From IMG/VR virus record IMGVR_UViG_3300025030_000042: a stretch of DNA of 64,000 nucleotides. One strand, written 5' to 3'. Each line of letters opens with the position of its first letter. Positions within the stretch are counted from its first letter, which is position 1. The DNA is from a virus (taxonomy: Duplodnaviria > Caudoviricetes). The notes under the pieces are model-generated. The model ran no database searches and was not told where the DNA came from. It was given only the letters and a program-made list of their open reading frames with translations. The position numbers and the translations under genes are program-made. Shown one piece after another: positions 45,170-59,986 of the stretch.

Positions 45170-45172
45170 ATA

Positions 45173-45541: not shown

Positions 45542-45542
45542 C

Positions 45543-45891: not shown

Positions 45892-47159
45892 AAATCTTCT
45901 TTACCAATAATACGAATCTCTGGAATATATTCAATAAACTTGCCTCCACGATCCAAGAAATCTTTTTCTTTTTTAAAGATTTCTTCTCTAAAGTTCCAAG
46001 CAGACAACAAATAATAATCCGGAACAATCTCTTTTTCTTTTAACTGTTCCGGGGAAACAATCGGAATACTTTTACCTGGCGAATATTTCCCCTGTTTCTC
46101 TGGGGTTGTATCAATAATATATGGCACCAAACTTTTTCCAATATTACAATAGTTATAAACTACTGTGCTCTTGCTGGTTGCTCCATATCCAACGACATTT
46201 TTTTTCCCTTTTTTTAAAGCAATCAACAAGTGAACAAGTTGTCTTTTATTTCTTCTCACGCCGGCAGCAAAAGAAACATATGTTACATATTTTGTTATTC
46301 CGAAATCTCGTTCTTCAAATATCGCATCCGCTACGCTACCATCAACATCTTCTTTTAATTTTTGTGATTCTTTTTTGACGGCATAAAACCTATTTGAACC
46401 GCCGTGCGTATTGACTTTTTCTATTTTATGTATTTTCATTCCCGCGCGATCCAAAAATACCTTCATCGAGTGGGCACAAAATAGATAAGCGTGTTCGTCA
46501 TATATTTGTTCATATGAACCAAGTTTCAACATTTCCAAAAGCGACGGATCCTCAAAAATAAAAACTCCATCATCATTCAATACTTCTTGAACACTTTTAA
46601 ATGCTTGATAAAGTCTGGAAATATGACACATACAGTTGGCAGAATAAACGACATCAAACTTGCCTTGTTCTGTCAACATTTTATCTTTCAAAGGCTCATC
46701 CCAGAACTCACTATATGTTGTGTATCCAAGTTCTTGCGTGATTTTGGCAAAGTTACCACACGGTTCTACAGCAACTACCTCTTCTGGTGTAAAGTTTTTG
46801 ATAAAAATTCCATCGTTTGAACCAACTTCCATAACTCTTTTTGGAGAAAACTCTTTTTTTATTTGTTCCGCAACTCTTTTGAAATGTTCTCGCATTGTGT
46901 TGGACATAGAAGAACGATAAGGATAATGATCGTGAAATAACATTCGTTTATCCGGAATCATTCCCAGAGCGACCAAACAACTATCTGGATCGAATGTGGC
47001 ACTCAAATTAAATCTAAACTCATAATCCGGATATTGCCCGATTAAAAATGCGTTTGCTAACGGTTGTAATCCAAGTTCTATAAATGTTATTCTTTCTCTT
47101 TGATGATTTTTTTCAAGTTTTACGCTACCGCCGAGTCTTTTTTTATCTGTAGTAATCAT
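45888..47159 (-). CDS. NDP-hexose C-methyltransferase (Methyltransf_13/14 architecture)
   Basis: LGLQPLANAF, YPYRSSMS, VMEVGSNDG, IYDEHAY, THGGSNR, GYGATSKSTV, DTTPEKQGKYSPG; start reassigned to ATG at 47159. Confidence 0.92.
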   Translation of the reverse strand: MITTDKKRLGGSVKLEKNHQRERITFIELGLQPLANAFLIGQYPDYEFRFNLSATFDPDSCLVALGMIPDKRMLFHDHYPYRSSMSNTMREHFKRVAEQIKKEFSPKRVMEVGSNDGIFIKNFTPEEVVAVEPCGNFAKITQELGYTTYSEFWDEPLKDKMLTEQGKFDVVYSANCMCHISRLYQAFKSVQEVLNDDGVFIFEDPSLLEMLKLGSYEQIYDEHAYLFCAHSMKVFLDRAGMKIHKIEKVNTHGGSNRFYAVKKESQKLKEDVDGSVADAIFEERDFGITKYVTYVSFAAGVRRNKRQLVHLLIALKKGKKNVVGYGATSKSTVVYNYCNIGKSLVPYIIDTTPEKQGKYSPGKSIPIVSPEQLKEKEIVPDYYLLSAWNFREEIFKKEKDFLDRGGKFIEYIPEIRIIGKEDL

Positions 47160-48115
47160 TATTTTAGTGTCTCCCACATATCCAATACATCTTGTGTCGC
47201 TTTTACGATTTCTTTATGTTGTGGTTCTGGGAGTGGCATTAAAGGCATTCGTTCATTTCTACTCATTAATCCACAATATTCTAAAGAAGAACGCAAAGAA
47301 ATATGCCAACCGTATTTCTTGGCAATCTTCAAATACGGCTGTTCTATATTTTCAACTATCTGTTTACATTTTTCTTTATTGCCTTCCTGATATGATTTGT
47401 AAAATGTAGTAGATATTTCTGGAGCAAATGATCCAACGCCTATTAAATATGATTGAGCCCCATATGGTTCACTGTTCATATATTGTTCTTTTGCGCGACC
47501 TGAAACAAGTATAGCAAGTTCGTCTTTCAAAGATTTAATAATCTCTTTACTATATTCATAATCTTTTGAATCTTCTTTTAACGCTATTACATTATCTATT
47601 TGAGCAAGTTTTTTAAGTAAATCAATGGGATATGGAATACGAGCACTGGAATGAGTATTTAAATGATCTGCGTGTATCAAAATACCGATATTAGAAGCAC
47701 TTTTAGCAACAAGTTCATAATGTTTCAAAACTTGTTCTTCAAAGTGATATCGCTCACTAAAAATAAGTGAAATGGCATCGGCACCATATTCACTCGCATT
47801 TTGAGCAAAATCACGACTTACTGTCGTTCTACAAGCAAGAGGATCCGCTACTATGACAACGCAATCATTATATTTCTTTTTAATATATTTAGACACATAA
47901 AGATTTAATGTATCTATTTCTTCGTTTTCCAACAAAGTAAATCTTGAAGAATAACACATTGCGTAAAAAACGCGAGCGCCATCTAAATAAAGAAAATCAA
48001 TATAATCAAACAAAACATCGTAATCTATTTCTTCATCATCTTTAAATGGCGGTATTATAGGAAATATCGGTCCTTTGATTTTATTTTTTAGTTCTTCAAA
48101 CTTCGTTGGTTTCAT
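47159..48115 (-). CDS. DHDPS/N-acetylneuraminate-lyase-family class I aldolase
   Basis: PIIPPF...EIDY, GADAISL, VIALKEDS (Schiff-base Lys), RMPL. Confidence 0.8.
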   Translation of the reverse strand: MKPTKFEELKNKIKGPIFPIIPPFKDDEEIDYDVLFDYIDFLYLDGARVFYAMCYSSRFTLLENEEIDTLNLYVSKYIKKKYNDCVVIVADPLACRTTVSRDFAQNASEYGADAISLIFSERYHFEEQVLKHYELVAKSASNIGILIHADHLNTHSSARIPYPIDLLKKLAQIDNVIALKEDSKDYEYSKEIIKSLKDELAILVSGRAKEQYMNSEPYGAQSYLIGVGSFAPEISTTFYKSYQEGNKEKCKQIVENIEQPYLKIAKKYGWHISLRSSLEYCGLMSRNERMPLMPLPEPQHKEIVKATQDVLDMWETLK

Positions 48116-48764
48116 TATATTCCTCTTCGGGTAAATGTTTCCAAGATTCTCGATTTATTATTTTACCTATCAAACATTTTGTAATTTTATGTTTATATTC
48201 TTCATATAAATCGCTATATGAATAGCCATTTTTAAATTTTCTTCTAATATCTAAAACTTCTTCGGGGGTTAATTTTGAATGAAATCCGCTTTCTCTTATT
48301 TTACCCCACATAGGATTATTTTTTCCAGAAACATCATGATGATTTTGACTTATTTTTTCTTTTGTTTCTTCGGTGTGCTTTTTGCCATAAAATGGATTTT
48401 TTTCTCCCTTGAGTGATTCGCTTATTTTCTTTTTTGTTTCTTCGCTAATAATTTTATGACCATTTATGATTCGCTCAATATTATATCCATATCTTTTATC
48501 CCAAGATTTTTTATCTTCTATCCAAAATTGTTCTGCTTCTGCTAAAAAATTTTCACAAACATATTCTATTATTTCAAATACAAAATTTTGTTTACCATAT
48601 TTATCCCAAGCACTTTGAAGATGACAAGAATTTCTTTTCCATTTAAAGTCTATTTTATGCCAAGTCCATCGCTTTCCAAAATTAACAGTGCTTCCAATAT
48701 AAATTTTTCCATTTATTAAATTTCTTATTTGATATATACCACTTTTTAGATTATGACCTATCAT
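48096..48764 (-). mobile_element. Free-standing GIY-YIG homing endonuclease with NUMOD3 repeats
   Basis: SGIYQIRNLINGKIYIGST; SEETKKKIS..KGEKNPFYGKKHTEETKEKIS. Confidence 0.93.
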
Positions 48765-48770
48765 CTTGTG

Positions 48771-50654
48771 TTATAATATTCCTTTATATTTTTTTAAATA
48801 ATGTAATCCTTCAAATATTCCAACTCCAAAATTATTATGTTGTTGCCAAATTTCCGTAATCCAGGAAAAATCTTTATCTTTTAAAACTTCTAAAACTTTA
48901 TCAAAATCTATCGTTCCATCTCCAAATTTTAATCCTTCTTCGTTTATATTTTTTGCGTCACTTATATGTAAATGTTGAATAAACGGCTTAACTTTTTGGG
49001 TATATTCTATCAAATCTTCTTTTGCCCAGTTACAATAAAGAGCACTATGACAAACATCATAACACATTTTCAGATTCAAAGCAACACAAAAATCTATCAT
49101 ATGTTCTGCTTTTGTAAAGGCATATTGTGTCCAGTGTCCCGAAAAATACCATGGAAATTTTGGAAGCGATTCTGGCAAAATATTTATTTGTTCTGAAGAA
49201 CAAGACAGTCTCTTGAAATTTTTAATTGCCCTTTCCATCATATCATCTTCATATTTTTCTAATCCCTTTTCTAAACTCATTCCTCCCACATGAACAACCA
49301 CAGAAGGAATACCTTTAAATCTTTGTCCTATTTCTATTGTTTTGTCAATGGTCTTTTGTATTATTTCGACAGATTTATCAACCACATTTTTATCTAAAGA
49401 ACAAAAATCCACCAAAGTTCTATCTACAATTTCCGGAGCATGTATAATAAGTTTTGAGTTTTTATTACTACCTTTAAAATTTATATTTAAATCATTAGAA
49501 GAACAATGAAACTCTATAATTTTAGCATCAATTTGTTTATATTCCTCATAATCGTGAAAACGACATTTTATTCCATAATCCTTTTTAAAATTAAACTTTA
49601 TATTTTTCCAATCTGGAATATCATTACTAAAATCTTCTTTACAAATATATTGTTCTTTTTCTATGTCTCGTTTAATCTCTTTCCCAAAATATTCTTCAAT
49701 CTCATGAGGAAATATTCCTTTTCCCGGAGATTTCCATTCAATTAATTCTTTTATTAATATTGTGCCTTTTTTAATTTTTTTTATTGCCACCGCAGATTTG
49801 GCAAATACTTCTTTATTTAATTTTTCAGCTACATTTACTTTTTTATTACAGTGAAATGATTTTTCAAAATTACGAATATTAGATACCATTTCTTTAAATT
49901 CATTAGGTAACAATGATGAAGAGTGATCTGGTCCTGATTGATTTTTGTTTAAAGTAATATGTTTTTCTATTATTCTTGCTCCTAAAGCAATTGCTCCTAT
50001 TGGAAGAAAAATCCCCGGATCGTGAGATGAGAGTCCTACAACATTTTGTCCCTCTTTTACTAACTCTTTTAAAAATTCAATAAATTTTATTCCAATATCA
50101 GCATAATCGCAAGGATATGTGCTATTAGTTAATAATAAAGCAAAATTTATAATATTATGATCATAATAATAATCAACACATTTTATAATTTCTTTTTGAT
50201 TCCATGTGCCCGTGGAAATAACCAGAGGCAGTCCATACAAGTTACATTTTTTAATCAACTCGTAGTTCACCATATCGGCAGACGAAATCTTAAATGCCTT
50301 CACGCCAAGATTATAACAAAACTCTGCCGACTTTAAATCAAACGGGGTTATGATAAGATCAATATTTAAATCATTACACTTCTTTTTAATAACCGAATAA
50401 TCTTCTTCAGAAAGTTCAGTTTCTTTTAGAATAGGAATAATATAGTCAAAATTCCACTCGGCGGCGTTGCTATCTTCCAATATTTTTTTTGTATAAATCT
50501 CTTCAAGGTTTCTTTTTTGAAATTTGACGGCATTAACACCAGCATTTTTTGATATTTCAATAAGGTCCAATGCTGTTCCAAGATCTCCATTATGATTTAT
50601 TCCAATCTCGGAAATGATGTAAACCTCTTTTCTTATTTGATCAAAAAAACTCAT
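48771..50654 (-). CDS. neuB: N-acetylneuraminate-synthase-family protein (NeuB + SAF) fused to C-terminal xylose-isomerase-like TIM barrel, 627 aa
   Basis: IISEIGINHNGD, AVKFQKR, FKISSAD, STYP, GLSSH, IIEKHITL, DHSSSLLP; C-terminal IIHAP, VVHVG, CYDVCH, HLHISDA...G...GDG.IDF, ITEI. Confidence 0.9.
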   Translation of the reverse strand: MSFFDQIRKEVYIISEIGINHNGDLGTALDLIEISKNAGVNAVKFQKRNLEEIYTKKILEDSNAAEWNFDYIIPILKETELSEEDYSVIKKKCNDLNIDLIITPFDLKSAEFCYNLGVKAFKISSADMVNYELIKKCNLYGLPLVISTGTWNQKEIIKCVDYYYDHNIINFALLLTNSTYPCDYADIGIKFIEFLKELVKEGQNVVGLSSHDPGIFLPIGAIALGARIIEKHITLNKNQSGPDHSSSLLPNEFKEMVSNIRNFEKSFHCNKKVNVAEKLNKEVFAKSAVAIKKIKKGTILIKELIEWKSPGKGIFPHEIEEYFGKEIKRDIEKEQYICKEDFSNDIPDWKNIKFNFKKDYGIKCRFHDYEEYKQIDAKIIEFHCSSNDLNINFKGSNKNSKLIIHAPEIVDRTLVDFCSLDKNVVDKSVEIIQKTIDKTIEIGQRFKGIPSVVVHVGGMSLEKGLEKYEDDMMERAIKNFKRLSCSSEQINILPESLPKFPWYFSGHWTQYAFTKAEHMIDFCVALNLKMCYDVCHSALYCNWAKEDLIEYTQKVKPFIQHLHISDAKNINEEGLKFGDGTIDFDKVLEVLKDKDFSWITEIWQQHNNFGVGIFEGLHYLKKYKGIL

Positions 50655-50833
50655 TAAACTACCTTTTTATAGCCTTTCTTATGTCCTAAATATAGTTTTG
50701 GAATCATAGAAACGGTATTTGAATCAAGAGAATATATTTTTATCATATTCATAGTTAAATCTAAAATCACTCTATAAAATCTTTTATCACCTATCTCAAG
50801 ATAAACTAAATCCCCAACTTTAAAATCATTCAT
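50654..50833 (-). CDS. Small KVGDL-family protein, 59 aa (not in ORF track)
   Basis: Manual translation MNDFKVGDLVYLEIGDKRFYRVILDLTMNMIKIYSLDSNTVSMIPKLYLGHKKGYKKVV; stop overlaps the neuB ATG. Confidence 0.78.
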   Translation of the reverse strand: MNDFKVGDLVYLEIGDKRFYRVILDLTMNMIKIYSLDSNTVSMIPKLYLGHKKGYKKVV

Positions 50834-51785
50834 TTTGTAATCTCTCTATATCACTCTTAACCATTTGCACAATAATCTCTTGGAATGAAGTTCTTGGACT
50901 CCACCCCAAAACTTCTTTTATTTTTGTATTATCTCCGATCAAAACATTTGGCGTAGCATCTTTATAATATTTTTTATCAACTCCAACATATTCTTGCCAA
51001 TCTTTTATTCCAATATACGAAAAACCAACATTTAAAATATCTTTTAAAGAATGCGCTTGACCAGTCGCAACAATATAATCTCCTGGCATATCTCTTTGAA
51101 GCATAAGATATATTGCTTCTATGGTGTCCGGCGCATATCCAAAATCTTTTGAAGTTTCAAGATTTCCTAAATATATTTTTTTTTGTATTCCCAGATATAT
51201 TTTCGCAATGCCATCCGTTATCTTTCTTGTTACAAACTCAAAACCTCGTCGTTCGCTATCGTGAGAAAACAAAATACCGTTACAGTTAAACATATCGTAT
51301 GTTTCGCGATATATTTTTGTATACCAATATGCTGCCGCCTTGGAAACGCCATAGGGACTTACAGGAAGAATGGGACTAACTTCCGTAATCATACCAACAT
51401 TTCTGGCGTACATTTCTGATGACCCAGCTTGAAAAAACTTTATTTTTTTTCCATATGACCGGATTGCTTCCAGCAATCTCAAAACACCAAGAGCGGTTAT
51501 ATCGGTTGTTTCTTCGGGATTTTTCCAACTTTCAAAGGGAAATGATTGGGAAGCAAGATTATATATCTCGTCCGGATTGCTTTTTTCAATGGCACCTAAA
51601 AGAGATTTTTGATCCGTTAAACATCCAGTAAAAAATGTTATTTTTCCTTCAAGGTGTTGAGTGTTTATTCTATTTCTTTCTCTTTCTAACCCAAAAACTT
51701 CATAATCTTTTTTCAATAGAAAATCAGCAAGATGAGAACCATCTTGTCCATTGATTCCAGTTATAAGTGCTCGTTTTTTTAGCAT
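50826..51785 (-). CDS. gmd: GDP-mannose 4,6-dehydratase-like (copy 2)
   Basis: RALITGINGQDGSHL, YNLASQS, FQAGSSE, YGVSK, GILFSHDSERRGFEFVTRKIT. Confidence 0.9.
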   Translation of the reverse strand: MLKKRALITGINGQDGSHLADFLLKKDYEVFGLERERNRINTQHLEGKITFFTGCLTDQKSLLGAIEKSNPDEIYNLASQSFPFESWKNPEETTDITALGVLRLLEAIRSYGKKIKFFQAGSSEMYARNVGMITEVSPILPVSPYGVSKAAAYWYTKIYRETYDMFNCNGILFSHDSERRGFEFVTRKITDGIAKIYLGIQKKIYLGNLETSKDFGYAPDTIEAIYLMLQRDMPGDYIVATGQAHSLKDILNVGFSYIGIKDWQEYVGVDKKYYKDATPNVLIGDNTKIKEVLGWSPRTSFQEIIVQMVKSDIERLQNE

Positions 51786-51825
51786 ATTTTTTTATATAAA
51801 AGTTCAATATGATTATCAAAATATG

Positions 51826-51963
51826 TTAAAAATTTCTTATATTTAAAACAATATAACCTATATGTTTGCTTGCCGTTTTTAAAAAAGAAGAGATTACAAA
51901 ATAATCTGGTTCATTTATTTTAACTTTATAAATGTAAACTATAAGATCTCCGGAAGTAATCAT
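51826..51963 (-). CDS. Small KVGDL-family ORF, 45 aa, possibly truncated by a frameshift
   Basis: MITSGDLIVYIYKVKINEPDYFVISSFLKTASKHIGYIVLNIRNF; ATGA overlap with the GT29 stop; one extra T in a T5 run would extend it to the gmd start. Confidence 0.55.
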   Translation of the reverse strand: MITSGDLIVYIYKVKINEPDYFVISSFLKTASKHIGYIVLNIRNF

Positions 51964-52583
51964 TTTAAAATGATCAGCCCTTCTTCATCAAGTTCAATAA
52001 GAAGATTTTTTTCTTCGTTAACACCGTGATATCCACTCGGTTGTGGGCGAGAACCGTAATAATGTGTTCTAACATATTCCGCATCTTCTTTACCACTATC
52101 AAACCCATAACAAACCGGTCGGACACCAGAAAAAATACAAGTTAAAATAAAACACACACCAACAGTCGGATTTTTTAAAAGATTAAAATATTTTTTATAA
52201 AGTTCCACCGTTCGGTAATCATAAAGAAATACTTGATTACTGGAATGAGTATTTTTATCTTTGTTCCAAAAAGGAACTAAATCTTCGGCAATATATAAGA
52301 TATTCGTGTTTCGCAAATCGCGAATAAAGTATTGCGGTTGATTTGACCATTCATCTTCGCGAAGTTTATTATTATTGAAGACGTGATTATTCACACAGCG
52401 AACAGTAGTTTTACTACCCACCCAACGCTCAAATCCCTCTGTTGGCGCACGATTAAATCGCATTACATCTTCAAAAGCGTCTATTTCTTCTCCATATTCG
52501 GTCTCAACAAGTTTTCCGCTACTGCCAACCACAGCGACACTCTCCGATATTTGAAGTTCTGGATTTACATATAAAAGTTTCAT
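51960..52583 (-). CDS. GT29 (eukaryote-type) sialyltransferase-family glycosyltransferase
   Basis: Sialylmotif L (SVAVVGSSG...YGEEIDAFEDVMRFNRAPTEGFERWVGSKTTVR), motif S (PTVG...CYGFD), motif III (HYY) and VS (H....E). Confidence 0.88.
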   Translation of the reverse strand: MKLLYVNPELQISESVAVVGSSGKLVETEYGEEIDAFEDVMRFNRAPTEGFERWVGSKTTVRCVNNHVFNNNKLREDEWSNQPQYFIRDLRNTNILYIAEDLVPFWNKDKNTHSSNQVFLYDYRTVELYKKYFNLLKNPTVGVCFILTCIFSGVRPVCYGFDSGKEDAEYVRTHYYGSRPQPSGYHGVNEEKNLLIELDEEGLIILK

Positions 52584-52850
52584 TTATGTATTCTCGCTTG
52601 GACCGGATAATAATATTGATTTACGACCGACTAAACTATCATTATCAAACTTATAAATCTTATTTTCCAAAAAATCATAAGTTTTATAATCATACTTAAA
52701 ATCTCCTATTCGGCCGTCTTTAAGAGAGAATATTCGTTCTCTCGTTTTAACATCGTCAGTATTGATGGACAATATTAAATAAATCTTGGCTCCTCCAATG
52801 ATATGATTGATGATCAAATCTCCGGGTTTAAATCTAAATATTTTACCCAT
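52584..52850 (-). CDS. Small KVGDL-family protein, 88 aa
   Basis: FRFKPGDLII...IYLILSI. Confidence 0.7.
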   Translation of the reverse strand: MGKIFRFKPGDLIINHIIGGAKIYLILSINTDDVKTRERIFSLKDGRIGDFKYDYKTYDFLENKIYKFDNDSLVGRKSILLSGPSENT

Positions 52851-53664
52851 TCGCGTATTCTTTCATAAAGGATTTCGCACCACCCTGGAAATGTAGCATC
52901 AAAAATCTAATATCTCGTTTTAAAATTTGGTTATAACCATAAGGATTTTTGTTAAACCATTTTATTTTTTTGATGCCGTTTTCCATTTCAAAAAAGTCTG
53001 ACTGGTTGATATTGTGATCAAAAGTTGTATCATCCGAAAATATTGTGCTCGTTTCTCCGACCATTCCAGGGTTATTATATCCGTCGTTTGAAAAAATATC
53101 CCAAATGGTCATATCGTTGGCGCCGCCCGCACGACCATTTTCTTGAAGATTTTTGAAGTGATAAAAACACTTATTAAAGTTAAACTTGTCTTTTTTAGAA
53201 TAAATGTTTGTTGTCAGTTGACACCATTCATTCAACACTGTTAAATCCATAATAAATGTAATACCGGCGGAAATACGATTTGTTGTGGTATAACGAAAGT
53301 TTTTAAATTTTTCTGCCTCTTCGTTAACATCACAAAACAAAAGCGTATCGCTATCTGTAGTAAAAAATCTATAAATATTATGAAACTTTACAAACTCATT
53401 TAAAATGAACCATCTTGAAAAACAAAATTTCTCAAAATGAATATTATTCGTGCTCATATGTTGATATATTTTTTCAAACTCTTTCGCAGAGTGAAAGTAT
53501 TCTTTGATATTATAATGTTCAATATGATCAAAACGATCGTTTTCTTCTGTTCCCAAAAGAATAATCCGAGACATCGGATTTCTACGGCGGGCTTGTTGAA
53601 TAGAATATTGTAAATAATCAGACCAACCGATATGAATATATATGATTGGAATATTTAAACACAT
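52843..53664 (-). CDS. Putative GT-A-fold glycosyltransferase, 273 aa
   Basis: IPIIYIHIG..DYL, FCFSRWFIL, TDSDTLLF (DxD), terminal LHFQG. Confidence 0.55.
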   Translation of the reverse strand: MCLNIPIIYIHIGWSDYLQYSIQQARRRNPMSRIILLGTEENDRFDHIEHYNIKEYFHSAKEFEKIYQHMSTNNIHFEKFCFSRWFILNEFVKFHNIYRFFTTDSDTLLFCDVNEEAEKFKNFRYTTTNRISAGITFIMDLTVLNEWCQLTTNIYSKKDKFNFNKCFYHFKNLQENGRAGGANDMTIWDIFSNDGYNNPGMVGETSTIFSDDTTFDHNINQSDFFEMENGIKKIKWFNKNPYGYNQILKRDIRFLMLHFQGGAKSFMKEYANG

Positions 53665-53847
53665 TTATGATACCTTTTGATAAGAAAAATCTGCCCAAAT
53701 GGGTAAATATATTATTTTTTTCTTACTACACCCATTTACACAATAAAGTTTATAACACAAATATATTCCATGTTGTATCGTTCTCAAAACTAACCGATAA
53801 TCTTCGGTTACGGTTATCAAATCACCAATTTTAAACTTTTTTAACAC
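53665..53847 (-). CDS. Small KVGDL-family protein, 60 aa
   Basis: FKIGDLI...YRLVL...CYKLYCVNG; GTG start overlapping the upstream TAG. Confidence 0.8.
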   Translation of the reverse strand: MLKKFKIGDLITVTEDYRLVLRTIQHGIYLCYKLYCVNGCSKKKIIYLPIWADFSYQKVS

Positions 53848-54029
53848 TATAATACCTTTTGATAAATACTTTCTTGACTAATGGATTGATATATTATTTC
53901 GTTCTTTTTCCACCCATTTATACAATAAAGTTTATAACATAAAAATAATCCTTTTTGTTCTACTCCCAAAACTAACCGATAATGTTCTTTGTGTATTTTA
54001 ACTATCAAATCACCAACTTTAAACTTCAC
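53847..54029 (-). CDS. Small KVGDL-family protein, 60 aa
   Basis: True start GTG at 54029 (the longer track ORF overlaps the upstream gene); FKVGDLI...YRLVL...CYKLYCING. Confidence 0.8.
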   Translation of the reverse strand: MKFKVGDLIVKIHKEHYRLVLGVEQKGLFLCYKLYCINGWKKNEIIYQSISQESIYQKVL

Positions 54030-54201
54030 AAATTTTCCAATATTTATCAGCATAATAAAAAGTTTCTCGAACAATAAAAAACTTTTTTGTAAAAGAATCG
54101 CCAAAATATAAAGATCTGTAACAGAGATCATTATCAACACTTAAAATAAGTCTATAGTGACCACTGTTATTTGTTACTAAATCCCCAGTCTTAAACTTCA
54201 T
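54019..54201 (-). CDS. Small KVGDL-family protein, 60 aa
   Basis: MKFKTGDLV...HYRLILSV. Confidence 0.78.
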   Translation of the reverse strand: MKFKTGDLVTNNSGHYRLILSVDNDLCYRSLYFGDSFTKKFFIVRETFYYADKYWKICEV

Positions 54202-54220
54202 ACTTTTCCCAATATTTTTA

Positions 54221-54418
54221 TTATAATACCTTCTCGTATTGATCGGTGCTCATCCAACTAACCACACAACCTTTTAATGGCGGATTATTTATAAAATAAA
54301 CTTTGACCAATTCAATTCCACATGATAGTCTTTTTATATCCAAAACAAATCTATAACCATATGTACCATCCAATCGTCCAACTAAATCCCCGACCTTAAA
54401 TCTCAAAATGCTTGACAT
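54221..54418 (-). CDS. Small KVGDL-family protein, 65 aa
   Basis: LRFKVGDLV...YRFVLDI...VKVYFIN; start reassigned to ATG at 54418. Confidence 0.78.
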   Translation of the reverse strand: MSSILRFKVGDLVGRLDGTYGYRFVLDIKRLSCGIELVKVYFINNPPLKGCVVSWMSTDQYEKVL

Positions 54419-54839
54419 ATATTTTATTATTGCCCACAAGTTTCAAAAACTGTAAATAATCTTTTATATAATCCTTCTCATCATATTCCATTGAACAAAT
54501 AGACATCAAAATCGCATATTCGTTCATAAATGTTATTTCTGCCCACTCCATCTCCGAGTGAAACACACTATCACCTGCCCAAGCATAGATATACCTCTTT
54601 TCGTGCCCGTTGTCAAGCATTATTCGGATTTTTCCCTTAACAATAACAAGCACTTGCTGATTTTGATGATGTGCATGATATCCTCGCGTCTCTCCTGGAG
54701 GAACATCCGTCACAACAAAAATCCGTTGCGGCACAAACGGAATATCAGAAAAACTTATTGGTAAAAGTTTTCCTCTATTCTTTTCGTCATAAATATTAAG
54801 AATATTTCTATTCAAGATATTCATACTTTCTATATTCAT
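54396..54839 (-). CDS. FdtA/QdtA-like cupin sugar 3,4-ketoisomerase
   Basis: RGKL...IPFVPQRIFVV..VP.GETRGYHAH, CSMEYDEKDYI. Confidence 0.9.
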   Translation of the reverse strand: MNIESMNILNRNILNIYDEKNRGKLLPISFSDIPFVPQRIFVVTDVPPGETRGYHAHHQNQQVLVIVKGKIRIMLDNGHEKRYIYAWAGDSVFHSEMEWAEITFMNEYAILMSICSMEYDEKDYIKDYLQFLKLVGNNKIYVKHFEI

Positions 54840-55857
54840 GAAGAAACTCTTCTATTTTCTGAATATCGTTTTCTTCTAAAAACGGATGGACTGGAAGAGA
54901 TAATATTTTATCATTTACGCGGTATCCGACATCATTATATTTTCCTTGTAATGCCGGAAGTTCGCTTACGTGATATGAATAATGAATCATATACGGTATT
55001 TCTGATTTGTTGAGTTGTTCAATAATAAAATCTCTATTATTCCATAGAGTTACATATTGATGATATACGCCTCCACGGCGGCCGTCAATACCTTTAATTA
55101 TATTATTATAATGTCTTGCAATCTTTCTTCTTTTGTTGTTTAACTTTTCAAACTTTTTAAGTTTTATATTTAGTATTGTCGCTTGTGTTTCATCTATGCG
55201 CGAGTTGATACCGCCCTCCTCCGTTACCATTCCTCCAGTTTGACCGTAAAACCGAAGTTTTCTTAAAAGTTCATTATCTTCGTCGGAATCAGTTAAAATC
55301 GCACTCGAATCACCATTTGAGTTCAAAGGTTTTGTAGGATAAAAAGAATAACACGCAAAATCAGATAAAAAACCACATCCAGATCCAGTGCTTTGAGCAC
55401 AATCTTCTATTAAAATATGATTATTTTGTTTACAATATGAATATATATCAATCATATTTGCTCGGTTACCAAAAAGATTTACCGGTAATACAATACCGTT
55501 TTGAATATCTGGAAGTTTATTTATATCTATCGTCATACTACGATCAACATCAACATAATGAATATTATTTGTATATTTTTTTATTGCCACCGCAGTAGGC
55601 ATTGCCGTAAAGTTGGGAACTATAACAGTCGCATTTGGATTTTTCTTTAAAGAAATCTGGATACATAACATCAAAGCGTCTGTCGCATTTTTAACAGTTA
55701 TACAATGTTTGCGACCAATATATTCGGCAAAACTTTTTTCAAACTTTTTTGTTTGTTCTCCGAAAAAAAACTGACCGGAACACAATGTTTTCGTAACCTC
55801 ATTTAAAAGTTCCGGTTGATAAAAAAGATAATCTTTTTCTAAATCGTTGAACTTCAA
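54808..55857 (-). CDS. DegT/DnrJ PLP sugar aminotransferase (FdtB-like)
   Basis: NATDAL, VNLFG, IEDCAQSTG, SFYPTKPLNSNGD, GINSRIDETQA; adjacent to fdtA-like gene. Confidence 0.9.
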   Translation of the reverse strand: MKFNDLEKDYLFYQPELLNEVTKTLCSGQFFFGEQTKKFEKSFAEYIGRKHCITVKNATDALMLCIQISLKKNPNATVIVPNFTAMPTAVAIKKYTNNIHYVDVDRSMTIDINKLPDIQNGIVLPVNLFGNRANMIDIYSYCKQNNHILIEDCAQSTGSGCGFLSDFACYSFYPTKPLNSNGDSSAILTDSDEDNELLRKLRFYGQTGGMVTEEGGINSRIDETQATILNIKLKKFEKLNNKRRKIARHYNNIIKGIDGRRGGVYHQYVTLWNNRDFIIEQLNKSEIPYMIHYSYHVSELPALQGKYNDVGYRVNDKILSLPVHPFLEENDIQKIEEFLHEYRKYEYLE

Positions 55858-56078
55858 AACTTCACCTTCTTTAAATAATCAAATATAATACCACGAAACG
55901 AATGATTACTTACCTTTTCATTTCCAATCCAATAAATAATATATTGATTTTTTTCGTCATCATAACCAATCACCACGCCAACCCCTTTACACCAATCAAC
56001 ACAATAATCAATAATATTAAAACCTTCAAACTTTTTATGTTCTACAAGATCTCCAATATCCAAGTATCTTTTTTTCAT
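55854..56078 (-). CDS. Small KVGDL-family protein, 74 aa
   Basis: LDIGDLVEH...GVGVVIG...YIIYWI. Confidence 0.72.
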   Translation of the reverse strand: MKKRYLDIGDLVEHKKFEGFNIIDYCVDWCKGVGVVIGYDDEKNQYIIYWIGNEKVSNHSFRGIIFDYLKKVKF

Positions 56079-56737
56079 TATTTACATAACAACATCGAAC
56101 CCTTCCAGTCCCCAAAATCCATATTTTCATTATGTTTAATATGTTGCTCAATCTTAAAATGATATATATCAAGCATATTTTCAAACTCAATGAAGTTTAT
56201 TATAGATTGATAGGTTGTTCCACCGTAGGAAGGATTTAGTTTTATGCTCGTTGATTTATATTCAGAAAATAACTGACGATGTAATATTATTTTTCGTGAC
56301 ATCATCAAAACTTTTTCAAAACATTCAAGAGGCTTTTCCAACACATCAATAAACGCATTCATTAAAACAACATCATACTCTTCCACAAAATCTATATTAT
56401 CTTTATAAATATCAAATGTAATATAGGTGTTTGATGGGTTGACTGCTCTTGATACAGCGTTTACGATGTGTGGTAGGTCTGCTCCGATATAAAAATACTC
56501 TGGAAATACTCTTGAAAACTCTGCCGCTCCACACCCGAGTTCAACAATAGAAGACATTTTCGGAATATGAGAAACAAGTGTTTTTAATATTGAAAAATGA
56601 TCGGAGTGTTCTAATATGGGAAATAAAACACCTTGCGCTCCCAAGATCATTTGTTTGGGAGTTGTCTTTTTGTCATACCAACAGGTATCTGTATTATATT
56701 TCTTCTTCTTTTGGGACATTTGCTTTAGAATATTCAA
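56078..56737 (-). CDS. Class I SAM-dependent methyltransferase-like protein
   Basis: SIVELGCG...YIGADL...YDVVL. Confidence 0.7.
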   Translation of the reverse strand: MNILKQMSQKKKKYNTDTCWYDKKTTPKQMILGAQGVLFPILEHSDHFSILKTLVSHIPKMSSIVELGCGAAEFSRVFPEYFYIGADLPHIVNAVSRAVNPSNTYITFDIYKDNIDFVEEYDVVLMNAFIDVLEKPLECFEKVLMMSRKIILHRQLFSEYKSTSIKLNPSYGGTTYQSIINFIEFENMLDIYHFKIEQHIKHNENMDFGDWKGSMLLCK

Positions 56738-56900
56738 AAAAACCGTTTATATTATAAAAAACAGAACCGATTTTCATAAAAAAAGAGTTGACAACTAAAT
56801 ATCTATGTTTTCCCAAATAAACCCTATATGATTTTTTATTCCCCTTCAAACAATATACCAAATCCCCAACTTTAAACTTTTCCGGTTCGCTTGAACTCAC
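56694..56900 (-). CDS. Small KVGDL-family protein, 68 aa
   Basis: KFKVGDLVYC...YRVYLG. Confidence 0.72.
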   Translation of the reverse strand: MSSSEPEKFKVGDLVYCLKGNKKSYRVYLGKHRYLVVNSFFMKIGSVFYNINGFFEYSKANVPKEEEI

Positions 56901-57126
56901 TGATTTTCTCGTTTTGAAGTGTCCATAGTTCGTTGACTTGTTTTTGAAGTGCCGCCAAAGAAATATTGGAAGACTTACAAATAAAACAAGTTAAACTAAC
57001 CAACGCATTTAAAACTGGAACAATAGAATCTGGCTGTCTCATCCAATCTGTTCTATCACGAAGTTCTTCAAGTCTCTTTCGCAACCCCATATACACCATA
57101 TTCGTTTTTTCTTCAAGAGTCATCAT
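56872..57126 (-). CDS. Hypothetical helical protein, 84 aa
   Basis: Coupled ORF, no motif recognised. Confidence 0.55.
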   Translation of the reverse strand: MMTLEEKTNMVYMGLRKRLEELRDRTDWMRQPDSIVPVLNALVSLTCFICKSSNISLAALQKQVNELWTLQNEKISEFKRTGKV

Positions 57127-57316
57127 TTTGTTTTATCTCCTTGTAATGTAAGTAAACATAGTTTTTTGTAAAACTAACTATTTGACCAGAACAAATGCCG
57201 TTAATTCTTAACAAATAGTAACGATCGCCAGTTACCTTGTAAACAAATCTTATAAGTCCATAAAATTTTTCTATAATAAGATCTCCAACTTTAAACTTTG
57301 TTTTTTTCATCTTCAA
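57113..57316 (-). CDS. Small KVGDL-family protein, 67 aa
   Basis: TKFKVGDLII...RFVYKV...YYLLRING. Confidence 0.75.
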   Translation of the reverse strand: MKMKKTKFKVGDLIIEKFYGLIRFVYKVTGDRYYLLRINGICSGQIVSFTKNYVYLHYKEIKQNDDS

Positions 57317-58172
57317 ATCTTTTTAAGAGTTCTGGCAATGTTTTCTGAATCGGTTCCGGATGTGTTCCTTCAAACTTTGCCGTAAACGCTGGTCCTCTAT
57401 ATTCCGGTTTGAACTCGTGCGTGCCAGAATAGAGGTGCTCCGTCATTTCTCTTTCTTCATCTGTTTCTGAAGATATCCACGGTAAATACACACGATTGAA
57501 GTAATCTGGAATGATCTTGTTAATAGCAACCTTACTTTCGTAATACTCCATTTTCTGTTTGACTTGACTCGGAAAACAATAGCTGTAGTGATACATCATC
57601 AAACCGATTTCATTGAACATTTGATCACTGGAAATATGTTTTTGTTGTATCGGCGATTTATGTTGAATCGTTGGTGGACGGTGTGTTTTCCAAAAACAAT
57701 CAGGGGTTAGACGAAACGCCCTCAAAAAATTATCGGTTGCCTGTTCAAATCCGGTCACATATCTATCAAATCCACCATAAAACGAATAGGGCTTGACTCC
57801 GCACGAGGTTGGTTGCTCCTTCTCCAAAAACCGAATCACATTTTCAATATCTTCGGACTTGTAACACTCGTCGCTGTCAATCTGAAAAAGGTAATCGGCG
57901 TTCGCTTCGTTCACAAACTTCATATATGCGTTACATTGTTGATCTTTTTCGGACCATTGACCGTGAACGATTTTGATTTTGCCAGTGGGATCTGGAAAAG
58001 AATACAAAATATTATTTGTGTTGTCCGATGAGGTTTTGTGTCCCTTATCTTGCCAGTAACGGACCGGTCCTTGCGCTATTGCGATGACCGAGGCATATGG
58101 ATAAACACATTCAAGAACTTGTCGTAAAACATAATCGCTGTTAAAGGTAATCATTCCGAAGGCGAGTTTCAT
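57291..58172 (-). CDS. GT2-like glycosyltransferase
   Basis: MKLAFGMITFN...LFQIDSDECY (DxD), MYHYSY; start reassigned to ATG at 58172. Confidence 0.78.
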   Translation of the reverse strand: MKLAFGMITFNSDYVLRQVLECVYPYASVIAIAQGPVRYWQDKGHKTSSDNTNNILYSFPDPTGKIKIVHGQWSEKDQQCNAYMKFVNEANADYLFQIDSDECYKSEDIENVIRFLEKEQPTSCGVKPYSFYGGFDRYVTGFEQATDNFLRAFRLTPDCFWKTHRPPTIQHKSPIQQKHISSDQMFNEIGLMMYHYSYCFPSQVKQKMEYYESKVAINKIIPDYFNRVYLPWISSETDEEREMTEHLYSGTHEFKPEYRGPAFTAKFEGTHPEPIQKTLPELLKRFEDEKNKV

Positions 58173-58176
58173 TTGG

Positions 58177-58368
58177 TTATTTTCCAACAAGTAACTTTCT
58201 ACAATGCCGAAACGCATTATATATCATATCTCGTTCAAGATTACAATAGTTTACTCTATTTTGTTCATTTTGACAACTATCACTAAAAAACTTATTTGTA
58301 TAATATCCCGAAAAAAAGAATACCGTCATAAGCAAAAGCATTATGAATATAATTTTAAGTTTCATCAT
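58177..58368 (-). CDS. Small membrane/secreted hypothetical protein, 63 aa
   Basis: Hydrophobic N-terminus IIFIMLLLMTVFFF. Confidence 0.55.
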   Translation of the reverse strand: MMKLKIIFIMLLLMTVFFFSGYYTNKFFSDSCQNEQNRVNYCNLERDMIYNAFRHCRKLLVGK

Positions 58369-58576
58369 TTAATTTCCAAACACAAAACTGTGATTTGATA
58401 TTTGTTATTGTTACTTTTTCAATATAAACTTTTCTACACCTTTTGGCACAAAGAAAAAGAACCTTAACATAATCGCGTCCTAAAATCCTGTTTTCTCCAC
58501 AAACAAGCCCCATACACTTATCGTAATCTGAATAAACCAGATCGCCAACTGATAGTTCTAATCTTATCATTCCCAA
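58355..58576 (-). CDS. Small KVGDL-family protein, 73 aa
   Basis: LSVGDLVYS...MGLVCG...YVKVLFL. Confidence 0.7.
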   Translation of the reverse strand: MGMIRLELSVGDLVYSDYDKCMGLVCGENRILGRDYVKVLFLCAKRCRKVYIEKVTITNIKSQFCVWKLNDET

Positions 58577-59962: not shown

Positions 59963-59986
59963 TTTGATGAAACTACTTTTGCGTTT

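What the first reader, a model, noticed from the sequence alone, without database searches (positions are those of the whole stretch)
51960..52583. Eukaryote-type GT29 sialyltransferase with its own NeuB/NeuA donor pathway in a bacteriophage
Seen: the 207-aa ORF carries sialylmotifs L, S, III (HYY) and VS (H-x4-E). It starts right at motif L, with no TM anchor or stem, and lacks the motif-L Cys of the Golgi-type disulfide. NeuB (48771-50654) and NeuA (35226-35915) lie in the same cluster. Established: GT29 is mainly eukaryotic (viral example: myxoma virus), while typical bacterial sialyltransferases belong to other families such as GT38, GT42, GT52 and GT80. Inference: a soluble cytoplasmic GT29 caps phage glycans with a nonulosonic acid, i.e. 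a sialylated phage. I found no AATT in this gene, the resident-gene signature described below, which suggests it is an old resident rather than a recent pickup.
Basis: partly seen in the sequence, partly recalled or inferred. Interest (0 to 1): 0.87.

Follow-up and report, generated by a model that had tools for sequence, protein, structure and literature searches.

The report
Minimal phage GT29 acid-sugar transferase
A groundwater tailed phage encodes a stripped-down, soluble relative of animal sialyltransferases inside a large sugar-building gene island. It belongs to a large, undescribed phage and bacterial branch of that family, and probably adds a sialic-acid-like or Kdo-like acidic sugar to a glycan whose target is still unknown.

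Summary
The ORF at 51960-52583 (-) encodes a 207-aa protein that hits PF00777 at 82 bits against a cutoff of 23. All four sialylmotifs are present, and the AlphaFold2 model (pLDDT 95) matches pig ST3Gal-I best. There is no membrane anchor, no stem and no motif L-S disulfide. A NeuB-family synthase and a cytidylyltransferase lie in the same island, and the gene contains no AATT.

- **Clade:** the protein is not a recent eukaryotic capture. It belongs to a large clade of about 200-aa forms found mainly in tailed phages and also in bacteria (Opitutales, Pseudovibrio).
- **Donor:** relatives almost always sit beside a cytidylyltransferase, a DHDPS-like enzyme, and either a NeuB-type or a KdsA-type synthase. 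Two related phages with 89%-identical GT29 and collinear, about 83-85% identical flanks, including the cytidylyltransferase gene, differ by exactly this synthase cassette. The donor is therefore a CMP-activated 2-keto-3-deoxy acid sugar, but not demonstrably sialic acid. The window has no NeuC, and its NeuB scores below every equivalog cutoff.
- **NeuB history:** the window's NeuB fusion and the adjacent homing endonuclease gene are AATT-rich, so they look recently imported.
- **Acceptor:** a "sialylated virion" is plausible but untested, and host-surface remodelling remains a live rival.

This scan has flagged similar phage GT29 modules in at least 13 genomes, this one included.

The parts
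51960..52583 (-). Minimal soluble GT29-family glycosyltransferase (207 aa). Motif L about residues 16-47, motif S 139-161, motif III H174-Y-Y, motif VS H186..E191.
   Evidence: PF00777 at 82 bits; family alignment; AF2 pLDDT 95.2; Foldseek top hit 2wnb ST3Gal-I, E 7.5e-12; profile against PDB E 1.4e-25.
52843..53664 (-). 273-aa GT-A (GT8-like) glycosyltransferase with an invariant D104-S-D106. It is the conserved upstream partner of the GT29 gene.
   Evidence: 49% identical and directly upstream of GT29 in L007 and L008; 36% identical in L034, about 2 kb upstream with three genes between. AF2 pLDDT 85. PDB matches are SetA, glycogenin, XXYLT1, LH3 and PBCV-1 A64R at TM about 0.4-0.5. Atlas structure neighbours are Nucleotid_trans and GT8.
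52584..52850 (-). 88-aa minigene abutting the GT29 start codon; function unknown.
50826..51785 (-). GDP-mannose 4,6-dehydratase-like SDR, immediately downstream of GT29.
   Evidence: PF16363 at 334 bits; TIGR01472 at 334 bits, below its cutoff of 415; AATT 0 against 11 expected.
48771..50654 (-). NeuB-SAF-AP_endonuc_2 (xylose-isomerase-like TIM barrel) fusion, 627 aa: a PEP-dependent ulosonic acid synthase of undefined substrate.
   Evidence: Pfam. NCBIfam NeuB 283 bits against cutoff 400, PseI 198 against 340. Nearest PDB is N. meningitidis NeuB, E 4e-41. The same fusion occurs in L001 and L013. AATT O/E 0.80, unlike its neighbours.
48096..48764 (-). GIY-YIG/NUMOD3 homing endonuclease gene adjacent to NeuB.
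   Evidence: Pfam; AATT O/E 1.06 and GC 0.27, the same non-resident signature as NeuB.
47159..48115 (-). DHDPS/NanA/KdgD-family Schiff-base enzyme. It is a conserved companion of phage GT29 genes, and its role in the pathway is unknown.
   Evidence: PF00701 at 82 bits. Best NCBIfam match is KdgD, below cutoff. The catalytic Lys is aligned (ALKED against AIKDA). Found near GT29 in 15 of 22 distinct loci. AATT 0 against 12.7 expected.
35226..35915 (-). CTP_transf_3 cytidylyltransferase (NeuA/PseF/KdsB-like), the presumed CMP-ulosonate synthetase.
   Evidence: PF02348; PseF model 118 bits against cutoff 206; homologues near GT29 in 16 of 22 distinct loci.
45888..47177 (-). Sugar C-methyltransferase (Methyltransf_14/23) that often co-occurs with phage GT29.
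   Evidence: Pfam; 44-48% identical homologues in L004, L007, L008, L013, L019, L024, L026, L027 and L034.
31421..63484 (-). Co-oriented glycan island. It holds 7 glycosyltransferase proteins (62189-63484 GT4; 60171-62189 GT4+GT2; 57291-58217 GT2; 52843-53664; 51960-52583; 38489-39415 TIGR04440; 36799-37761 GT2-like, below the Pfam cutoff) plus nucleotide-sugar enzymes. None has multiple membrane spans.
   Evidence: hydropathy scan.
2414..29650 (-). Adjacent baseplate and tail-fibre module that marks the replicon as a contractile-tailed phage: gp25-like 20278-20649, gp6-like wedge 18452-20248, VanY-domain protein 27368-29650, and giant 3474-aa and 1856-aa proteins.
   Evidence: Pfam; tblastn to baseplate wedge proteins of Microcystis phage Mel-JY01 and Flavobacterium phage immuto at about 30%.

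Best explanation
The gene encodes an active, cytoplasmic, anchorless GT29-family glycosyltransferase from a prokaryotic and phage short-form clade. By homology it uses a CMP-activated 2-keto-3-deoxy-ulosonic acid as donor, with the motif-VS His186 as catalytic base and motif-III His174 at the phosphate. In this phage the donor would be made by the NeuB-TIM-barrel fusion, probably processed by the DHDPS-like Schiff-base enzyme, and activated by the CTP_transf_3 cytidylyltransferase. The enzyme then adds that acidic sugar to an oligosaccharide built by the neighbouring soluble glycosyltransferases, including the conserved GT8-like partner. Shown here: family membership, fold, motif conservation, the conserved linkage to CMP-ulosonate genes and the exchange of synthase cassettes. 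Inferred: catalytic activity and the donor class. Unknown: the exact sugar (a 9-carbon NeuB product or a Kdo-like sugar) and the acceptor. My estimates for the acceptor are virion proteins about 40%, host envelope glycan about 35% and other about 25%.
For: Family and fold: PF00777 at 82 bits; profile against ST3Gal-I E 1.4e-25 with motifs in register; AF2 pLDDT 95 with all top PDB hits GT29, followed by GT42 CstII. Selection: His186 is invariant, and His174, Tyr175 and Glu191 are at least 90% conserved across 40 sequences down to about 29% identity. There are 278 50%-identity clusters at E<1e-10. Donor class: of 22 distinct loci, 16 carry a CTP_transf_3 gene, 17 carry a NeuB-type (9) or KdsA-type (8) synthase, and 15 carry a DHDPS-like gene within 10 kb. 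L013 and L027 are collinear at 83% nucleotide identity up to the last base of GT29. They then carry NeuB-TIM+DHDPS+kinase in one and DHDPS+KdsA in the other, and then become collinear again through the cytidylyltransferase. Their GT29 proteins are 89% identical. Precedent for non-sialic donors in GT29: plant RCKT1 is a probable Kdo transferase (PMC12168206). Soluble machinery: none of about 70 minus-strand ORFs in the window, some 55 of them in the island, has more than one predicted membrane span.
Against: No enzyme of this short clade has been assayed, so activity and donor rest on homology and gene linkage. The cytidylyltransferase lies 16 kb from GT29 in this window. NeuB and the cytidylyltransferase are below the NCBIfam equivalog cutoffs, and no NeuC or phosphatase is present. 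The window's NeuB has a different AATT signature from GT29, so the two may not have co-evolved. The 57 N-terminal Pfam positions that help form the acceptor site in animal enzymes are absent. One jumbo-phage locus with full flanks (L028) has a GT29 homologue with none of the four companion genes detected by tblastn at E 1e-5.
Confidence: 0.72

Rival explanations
1. One reading: a genuine sialyltransferase that uses a CMP-nonulosonic acid (Neu5Ac, Leg or Pse) made by the phage's NeuB and NeuA to cap glycans on the phage particle, giving a sialylated virion.
For: NeuB-family and NeuA/PseF-like genes lie in the island. The island abuts the baseplate and fibre module. All enzymes are soluble, with no Wzx, Wzy or priming transferase. 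The partner GT-A resembles protein-glycosylating enzymes, including the chlorovirus capsid glycosyltransferase A64R. [TS]GS tripeptides are strongly enriched in two neighbouring virion proteins, 32 against 4.6 and 7 against 0.8. Phage virion glycosylation has precedent in mycobacteriophages (Freeman 2023, cited in PMC12619734).
Against: No NeuC, LegG or PseG-type step is present, and NeuB is below every equivalog cutoff. Near-identical GT29s pair with KdsA instead of NeuB in sister phages, and the closest homologue (56%) sits by a KdsA-type gene. There are no virion glycan data. The structural matches of the partner GT are weak (TM 0.4-0.5), and the GT8 fold also includes LPS enzymes.
Confidence: 0.25
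2. Host-surface remodelling: during infection the island rebuilds or caps the host's LPS, capsule or S-layer glycan using host lipid carriers and export. The purpose would be to block superinfection or alter recognition, the usual reading of cyanophage 'LPS' clusters.
For: This is the standard interpretation of large sugar clusters in lytic cyanomyoviruses (P-SSM2, PMC1079782; S-SCSM2R with kdsA and kdsB, PMC12801897). GT2 and GT4 enzymes normally act on undecaprenyl-linked intermediates without being integral membrane proteins. Bacterial members of the same short GT29 clade sit in cellular polysaccharide loci (L030 Opitutales with GT8 and a methyltransferase; Pseudovibrio next to a polysaccharide pyruvyl transferase).
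Against: The window has no flippase, polymerase, ligase or initiating phosphoglycosyltransferase. The island sits next to structural genes. A 32-kb investment for a transient host modification in a lytic phage is hard to explain, though that is not evidence.
Confidence: 0.3
3. Kdo-type transferase: the enzyme's native donor is an 8-carbon Kdo-like sugar, as for plant RCKT1. The NeuB fusion either makes the same or a similar sugar by a phosphate-independent route, or serves another transferase.
For: The closest homologue's island (L034) is collinear with the window's but has a KdsA-type gene where the window has NeuB. Eight of 22 loci are KdsA-type. The synthase type changes at least 3-5 times on the GT29 tree and is no more clustered than shuffled labels, 148 of 500. 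The window's NeuB looks recently imported. The L013 NeuB cassette carries an extra kinase, consistent with convergence on a KdsA-like product.
Against: The window's AATT-free, resident DHDPS-like gene is of the type that travels with NeuB: 41-47% identity to NeuB-type loci against 22-26% to most KdsA-type loci (31% in L022). The lineage has therefore probably been NeuB-type for some time. No KdsA homologue is in the window.
Confidence: 0.2
4. An inactive relic, or a carbohydrate- or nucleotide-binding protein without transferase activity.
For: It lacks the N-terminal part of the eukaryotic catalytic domain, and no member has been assayed.
Against: The catalytic His and the nucleotide-binding motifs are conserved across hundreds of diverged clusters. 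The gene is intact in many phages, and the model is compact and very confident.
Confidence: 0.04

Closest known systems
Animal Golgi GT29 sialyltransferases (pig ST3Gal-I 2WNB; human ST8Sia-III, ST6GalNAc-II, ST6Gal-I)
   Same: Same Pfam family, same GT-A-variant fold (TM by query 0.6-0.74), sialylmotifs L, S, III and VS in register, and conserved motif-VS and motif-III histidines.
   Different: About 22-25% identity. The phage protein has no membrane anchor, no stem and none of the first 57 Pfam positions. Both cysteines of the L-S disulfide are replaced. It is cytoplasmic and phage-encoded, and its donor may not be sialic acid.
Bacterial GT29-like proteins (Petit et al. 2018, PMC5811610; e.g. 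the 203-aa Pseudovibrio japonicus protein)
   Same: Short anchorless form of about 200 aa. It falls in the same cluster apart from animal enzymes, at SH-aLRT 98.
   Different: Only 28% identical and on a long branch. The bacterial ones sit in chromosomal polysaccharide loci. Phage members were not described in that paper (0 occurrences of 'phage' or 'virus'). I know of no assayed member.
Plant GT29 RCKT1/MGP2 (probable RG-II Kdo transferase) and SIA2
   Same: GT29 members that use, or are proposed to use, CMP-Kdo rather than CMP-sialic acid (PMC12168206). This parallels the KdsA-linked phage GT29s.
   Different: The plant enzymes are Golgi type II membrane proteins acting on pectin. No sequence comparison was made here.
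GT29 genes of eukaryotic viruses (myxoma virus, from my own knowledge; chelonid herpesvirus 5, title only, not read; EhV-18 and EhV-156 coccolithoviruses)
   Same: Virus-encoded members of GT29.
   Different: Those are host-derived, eukaryote-type genes in viruses of eukaryotes. This one is in a tailed phage and belongs to the prokaryotic short clade.
GT42 bacterial sialyltransferases (Campylobacter CstI and CstII)
   Same: The next-best structural matches, sharing the GT-A-variant fold and CMP-sugar chemistry (E 1e-4 to 1e-3).
   Different: A different CAZy family. The window protein scores far better against GT29.
Virus-encoded glycan machineries: mycobacteriophage virion glycosylation (Freeman 2023), chlorovirus A64R, and cyanophage 'LPS' clusters (P-SSM2; S-SCSM2R with kdsA and kdsB)
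   Same: A large virus-borne set of sugar-synthesis and transferase genes. The partner GT-A matches A64R weakly. kdsA and kdsB are reported in a cultured cyanophage.
   Different: No GT29 is reported in the texts read for P-SSM2, S-SCSM2R and the moraphage survey; Freeman 2023 was not read. Only one of 50,697 GenBank phage records, an unannotated 484-kb metagenomic phage, matched this protein.

Membership tests
CAZy GT29 / Pfam PF00777 | Score above the Pfam gathering threshold | tested here: met
   82.2 bits against 23, E 5.5e-23; every listed homologue but the weakest carries PF00777.
CAZy GT29 / Pfam PF00777 | Sialylmotifs L, S, III and VS in order, with the conserved His of III and VS | tested here: met
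   Family alignment and alignment to ST3Gal-I: L residues 16-47, S 139-161, III H174-Y-Y, VS H186..E191.
CAZy GT29 / Pfam PF00777 | GT-A-variant sialyltransferase fold | tested here: met
   AF2 pLDDT 95.2; Foldseek 2wnb E 7.5e-12, TMq 0.71; the first 30 hits are all GT29.
CAZy GT29 / Pfam PF00777 | Conserved disulfide between motif L and motif S | tested here: not met
   Val16 and a non-Cys residue occupy the two Cys positions of ST3Gal-I; these columns vary across the family. This is a feature of the Golgi enzymes, not a requirement of the CAZy family.
CAZy GT29 / Pfam PF00777 | Type II membrane topology with a stem region | tested here: not met
   The protein starts about 15 residues before motif L. 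There is no membrane segment apart from the buried motif-S helix. Profile positions 1-57 are absent.
CAZy GT29 / Pfam PF00777 | Inverting transfer from a CMP-beta-ulosonic acid donor | not testable with these tools
   Only indirect support: linkage to CTP_transf_3 plus NeuB or KdsA genes in most loci.
Short prokaryotic and phage GT29 clade | About 195-225 aa, no anchor, clusters apart from animal GT29 | tested here: met
   Nearly all of the best 150 representatives are 195-225 aa. The cluster of 48 rows, including Pseudovibrio, has SH-aLRT 98. Only five animal sequences served as outgroup and the search was quick.
Canonical Neu5Ac pathway (NeuC-NeuB-NeuA) | NeuB equivalog, a hydrolysing UDP-GlcNAc 2-epimerase and a CMP-Neu5Ac synthetase | tested here: not met
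   NeuB 283 bits is below the cutoff of 400. No Epimerase_2/NeuC was found in the ORFs of 99 aa or more that were scanned. The cytidylyltransferase fits PseF best but is below cutoff.
Pseudaminic / legionaminic acid pathways | PseB/C/H/G/I/F or LegB/C/H/G/I/F sets | tested here: inconclusive
   DegT aminotransferases (LegC/PseC-like, below cutoff), acetyltransferases and SDRs are present. PseI scores 198 against a cutoff of 340, LegB 68 against 475, and there is no PseG or LegG.
Tailed phage (contractile tail) | Baseplate and tail genes on the same replicon | tested here: met
   gp25 PF04965; gp6-like wedge about 30% identical to Mel-JY01 and immuto phages; VanY tail protein; GIY-YIG homing endonuclease.

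The most novel reading that the evidence does not exclude
Phage GT29 and its cytidylyltransferase form a donor-tolerant 'acid-sugar capping' platform. Next to it, NeuB-type and KdsA-type synthase cassettes are repeatedly exchanged between co-infecting phages, in this window possibly carried by the adjacent GIY-YIG homing endonuclease. This would diversify the terminal acidic sugar on a phage-made glycan displayed on the virion. If so, tailed phages would be both a large reservoir and a possible vector in the deep history of the sialyltransferase family.
Probability: 0.2. Interest if true: 0.82.

Novelty: new variant of a known kind. Interest (0 to 1): 0.6.

Why it matters
GT29 is the textbook animal sialyltransferase family. 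Bacterial members were first reported in 2018, and to my knowledge none has been assayed. This work shows that the window's gene belongs to a large, diverse clade of minimal, disulfide-free, soluble enzymes carried mostly by tailed phages and genetically tied to CMP-ulosonate supply genes.

That matters in three ways.
- **Tractable enzymes:** these are small catalysts that should express in E. coli, useful for glycoengineering and for defining the minimal GT29 catalytic core.
- **Testable hypothesis:** phages may make and display, or impose on their hosts, sialic-acid-like or Kdo-like sugars.
- **Evolutionary history:** a phage reservoir has to be considered in accounts of how eukaryotes acquired sialyltransferases.

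The clean NeuB-to-KdsA cassette swap beside an 89%-identical transferase is a natural experiment on donor specificity.

Tried and rejected
- **No genome held for this window**, so genome-wide checks, such as a second cytidylyltransferase, KdsA or NeuC elsewhere, were not possible.
- **No nucleotide match to known phages:** megablast of 12 kb against GenBank phages found nothing.
- **Locus search with the 40-sequence alignment failed** for lack of a conserved stretch. It was repeated with a 9-sequence alignment. That pattern-based scan is narrow, so the count of 3 cellular hits is a lower bound.
- **Promoters:** the promoter motif reported elsewhere in this genome (GATCGTATAAY) is not in the island, and the generic promoter and terminator scan was uninformative. 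There is therefore no evidence on expression timing.
- **Sequencing runs:** no RNA holder was listed. Contigs from four groundwater or soil runs matched the region piecewise and identically, including across the DHDPS-endonuclease-NeuB junction. No variant lacking the cassette was found, and the joints reported had sides too short to trust.
- **Literature:** four full-text searches aimed at GT29 or sialyltransferase in phages found no paper describing one. This is absence in the searchable library only.
- **TIM-barrel domain of NeuB:** its nearest solved structure is an uncharacterised protein (MJ1311), so no function could be assigned.
- **DNA glycosylation considered and set aside:** GT29 chemistry and the multi-transferase island fit an oligosaccharide, and no base-hypermodification genes were seen in the window. 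The rest of the genome was not examined.
- **AlphaFold DB fold search:** organism names were hidden in the output, so it added nothing on taxonomy.
Full report
**1. The observation**

The minus-strand ORF at 51960-52583 encodes 207 residues from an ATG. It matches Pfam PF00777 (Glyco_transf_29) at E 5.5e-23 and 82 bits, against a gathering cutoff of 23. The match covers profile positions 58-271 of 272.

I aligned it with 39 homologues that go down to about 29% identity. The invariant and near-invariant columns fall on the four sialylmotifs:
- motif L: V16-P47, with I34, R42 and N44 invariant
- motif S: P139-F161, with G142 and G160 invariant
- motif III: H174-Y175-Y176
- motif VS: H186-x4-E191

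A profile of that alignment finds pig ST3Gal-I among all PDB sequences at E 1.4e-25, with all motifs in register. In that alignment the two cysteines of the Golgi-type L-S disulfide align with Val16 and a non-Cys residue.

An AlphaFold2 model built on the alignment is very confident (mean pLDDT 95.2, pTM 0.92). Its first 30 Foldseek hits in the PDB are all GT29 enzymes: ST3Gal-I at E 7.5e-12 and TMq 0.71, then ST8Sia-III, ST6GalNAc-II and ST6Gal-I. The GT42 CstI and CstII enzymes follow.

Homologues begin at the same point, so the protein really does start about 15 residues before motif L. It has no anchor or stem. The one hydrophobic stretch is the buried motif-S helix.

AATT is absent from the gene, against 6.7 expected from base composition.

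**2. The replicon**

The window carries several phage markers:
- a gp25-type baseplate wedge protein
- a gp6-like wedge protein about 30% identical to those of Microcystis phage Mel-JY01 and Flavobacterium phage immuto
- a VanY-domain tail protein
- giant 3474-aa and 1856-aa proteins
- a GIY-YIG/NUMOD3 homing endonuclease

No whole genome is held for the window, and no GenBank phage is similar at the nucleotide level. An identical GT29 protein lies on a groundwater metagenome contig. The DNA recurs in groundwater and soil runs from several studies.

Positions 31.4-63.5 kb form a co-oriented sugar island. It contains seven glycosyltransferase proteins, two GMD-like dehydratases, a GDP-fucose-synthase-like SDR, an RmlA-like nucleotidyltransferase, FdtA-like isomerases, two DegT aminotransferases, formyl-, acetyl-, C- and O-methyltransferases and a PAPS-reductase-like protein. 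None of the roughly 70 minus-strand ORFs in the window, some 55 of them in the island, has more than one predicted membrane span. There is no flippase, polymerase, ligase or priming transferase.

**3. Which GT29 is it?**

An exhaustive HMMER search of 1.84 billion representatives gave 2,071 hits at E<1e-3, 278 at E<1e-10 and 51 at E<1e-30. Nearly all of the best 150 are 195-225 aa long.

In the ESM Atlas, 83 of the 100 nearest clusters carry PF00777. Those shown are mostly Uroviricota, and fusions to a methyltransferase or a GT8 domain also occur. A pattern scan of IMG/VR returned 22 viral loci, including contigs of 442 and 459 kb.

A near-identical pair of peptide patterns, run over one genome for each of 185,579 prokaryotic species, found only three loci. 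One of them is a 169-kb Opitutales contig that looks cellular, with a sigma-54 activator and a DAHP synthase. A profile search also recovered a 203-aa 'glycosyltransferase family 29 protein' of Pseudovibrio japonicus and several animal enzymes.

In a quick maximum-likelihood tree, the short forms including Pseudovibrio cluster apart from the animal sequences (SH-aLRT 98). The window protein groups with four metagenomic proteins, the nearest being P0188 at 56% identity. The outgroup sample is small and Pseudovibrio is on a long branch, so this shows separation and not direction.

Bacterial GT29s are already in the literature (Petit et al. 2018: 23 sequences, 19 of them alphaproteobacterial). 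That paper does not mention phages. 'Eukaryote-type' is therefore correct only at the level of the CAZy family. The gene belongs to an old, diversified clade of short prokaryotic and phage forms.

**4. Conserved neighbours and what they say about the donor**

I used the window's proteins, plus a KdsA-like protein from a relative, as tblastn probes against all fetched loci, together with precomputed Pfam calls. There are 22 distinct loci including the window:

| Companion gene within 10 kb | Loci (of 22) |
|---|---|
| CTP_transf_3 cytidylyltransferase | 16 |
| DHDPS-family gene | 15 |
| NeuB-family synthase | 9 |
| KdsA-like (DAHP_synth_1) synthase | 8 |

Three of the five loci with neither synthase have truncated flanks. 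In several loci the order is GT29, then DHDPS-like, directly adjacent.

The synthase type does not follow the GT29 tree. It needs five changes, at least three of them forced by well-supported branches, and it is no more clustered than shuffled labels (148 of 500).

The clearest case is L013 against L027:
- The two contigs are collinear at 83% nucleotide identity up to the last base of the GT29 gene.
- They then diverge completely. L013 carries a 3.6-kb NeuB-SAF-TIM fusion plus DHDPS plus an APH-type kinase. L027 carries a 1.7-kb DHDPS plus KdsA-like cassette.
- They become collinear again through the CmcI methyltransferase and the cytidylyltransferase.
- The two GT29 proteins are 89% identical.

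So an 89%-identical transferase and a cytidylyltransferase lying in an ~85%-identical collinear segment work beside either kind of PEP-dependent synthase. Either the cassettes converge on similar sugars, or the activating and transferring enzymes tolerate both 8- and 9-carbon 2-keto-3-deoxy acids.

**5. The window's own cassette**

The nearest relative's contig (L034) is collinear with the window's island from the GT4 gene through the DegT gene, at 36-56% protein identity. Between GT29 and the C-methyltransferase the two differ:

| Replicon | Genes between GT29 and the C-methyltransferase |
|---|---|
| L034 | DHDPS-like (22% identical to the window's), a 259-aa protein, a KdsA-like gene, and two small ORFs (DUF6356, Tad5-like) |
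| Window | GMD-like, the NeuB fusion, the GIY-YIG endonuclease, a DHDPS-like gene |

Per-gene AATT observed/expected is bimodal:
- Most genes, including GT29, the DHDPS-like gene, the GMD-like gene and the cytidylyltransferase, are at 0-0.3.
- The NeuB fusion (0.80) and the endonuclease gene (1.06) are near expectation, as are a few other genes.

NeuB looks like a recent import, possibly moved together with the endonuclease gene; that last step is my inference.

The window's DHDPS-like gene is of the subtype found with NeuB-type loci (41-47% identity, against 22-26% for most KdsA-type loci and 31% for L022). The lineage was therefore probably already NeuB-type before that replacement.

On pathway identity:
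- The NeuB domain scores 283 bits on the NeuB equivalog (cutoff 400) and 198 on PseI (cutoff 340).
- The cytidylyltransferase fits PseF best, at 118 bits against a cutoff of 206.
- The DHDPS-like protein is nearest to KdgD, keeps the Schiff-base lysine, and is below all cutoffs.
- No NeuC, LegG or PseG-type enzyme and no HAD phosphatase is in the window.
- The C-terminal TIM-barrel domain of the NeuB fusion has no informative relative.

The donor is thus best described as a CMP-activated ulosonic acid of unknown structure. Calling it sialic acid is not justified. A non-sialic donor has precedent within GT29: plant RCKT1 is required for Kdo on RG-II (PMC12168206).

**6. The acceptor**

Nothing here shows what is glycosylated.

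Points in favour of virion proteins:
- all the enzymes are soluble, with no export or polymerisation genes
- the island sits next to the baseplate and fibre genes
- the conserved upstream partner, the 273-aa protein at 52843-53664, is a GT-A enzyme with an invariant DSD motif, and its best solved matches are protein-glycosylating enzymes (SetA, glycogenin, XXYLT1, LH3 and the chlorovirus capsid enzyme A64R), though only at TM 0.4-0.5
- [TS]GS tripeptides are strongly enriched in the 3474-aa and 487-aa virion proteins

Points in favour of host-surface remodelling:
- this is the standard reading of such clusters in cyanomyoviruses
- GT2 and GT4 enzymes commonly act on lipid-linked intermediates supplied by the host
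- cellular members of the clade sit in polysaccharide loci

I put virion proteins at about 40%, the host envelope at about 35% and other targets at about 25%.

**7. Comparison with what is known, and novelty**

The protein meets the sequence, motif and fold criteria of GT29. It fails the two features specific to the Golgi enzymes, the disulfide and the type II topology. Its donor chemistry cannot be tested with these tools.

Only one of 50,697 GenBank phage records matched it. That record is an unannotated 484-kb metagenomic phage with four GT29-like places and a NeuB about 2 kb upstream of the best-matching one. Four targeted full-text searches found no paper on GT29 in a bacteriophage. Family-level annotation does exist in databases.

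This scan has independently flagged similar phage GT29 modules in at least 13 genomes, this one included. That agrees with the breadth I measured but is not independent proof of function.

I class the finding as a new variant of a known kind: a minimal, soluble phage GT29 lineage coupled to interchangeable ulosonate-synthase cassettes.

**8. Verdict**

| Claim | Estimate |
|---|---|
| Real gene, real GT29 fold | about 0.97 |
| CMP-ulosonate transferase within a phage glycan island | about 0.7 |
| Interest | 0.6 |

The family-level picture and the cassette swap are new and testable with simple biochemistry. Function and target remain inferred.

Noticed in passing
window 1-64000, per gene: AATT is depleted about 3.6-fold overall (229 against 829 expected), but the depletion is bimodal by gene. 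Most genes have O/E 0-0.3. 31421-32422, 32419-33147, 38489-39415, 43923-45169, 48096-48764 and 48771-50654 have O/E 0.6-1.3. This looks like a marker of recently acquired DNA, or of avoidance of a restriction site.
   Followed up: partly
window 6495-16919 (3474-aa gene): The giant virion gene is mosaic for AATT. About 35 sites lie in 6553-11084, the C-terminal part, and only 3 in 11085-16919. This suggests recent exchange of the distal, probably receptor-binding, portion.
   Followed up: no
window 6495-16919 and 16968-18431: [TS]GS tripeptides are strongly enriched in the 3474-aa protein (32 against 4.6 in shuffles) and the 487-aa protein (7 against 0.8), but are absent from the 1067-, 598-, 1856- and 760-aa neighbours. 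This may be a glycosylation sequon or simply a repeat signature.
   Followed up: partly
L013:10626-14217 against L027:10626-12285: Two IMG/VR phage contigs that are otherwise about 83-85% identical differ by a clean replacement directly after the GT29 stop codon. One has NeuB-SAF-TIM plus DHDPS plus an APH-type kinase, and the other has DHDPS plus a KdsA-like gene.
   Followed up: yes
window 48096-48764: A GIY-YIG/NUMOD3 homing endonuclease gene sits directly beside the AATT-rich NeuB fusion and shares its composition. It may have carried the flanking synthase gene with it.
   Followed up: partly
LR756508.1 (uncultured 484-kb phage), about 322.7-326.1 kb: This published but unannotated huge-phage genome has four GT29-like places and a NeuB-like gene about 2 kb upstream of the best-matching one. 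Its baseplate wedge protein is also 29% identical to the window's.
   Followed up: no
L001 (7052-9983) and L004 (13990-17702): Related phage islands carry eukaryote-flavoured families next to GT29 (Exostosin GT47/RXYLT1_C, Nucleotid_trans PF03407). They also carry sulfotransferases and a PhyH dioxygenase beside the cytidylyltransferase, which suggests sulfated or hydroxylated acid sugars.
   Followed up: no
L034:7986-8345 and 13256-13690: The nearest relative's glycan island contains an RF-1-domain protein and a Tad5-family (anti-defence-like) protein embedded among the sugar genes.
   Followed up: no
ESM Atlas neighbours of the GT29: Phage clusters exist in which the GT29 domain is fused to a Methyltransf_11/23 domain or to a GT8 domain. 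A chlorophyte cluster has GT29 fused to TIG domains.
   Followed up: no
window 52584-52850 and many other inter-enzyme positions: Small 45-99-aa ORFs are threaded between the sugar genes. The 88-aa ORF abuts the GT29 start codon and is also called on the independent groundwater contig L032. It has no Pfam hit.
   Followed up: no
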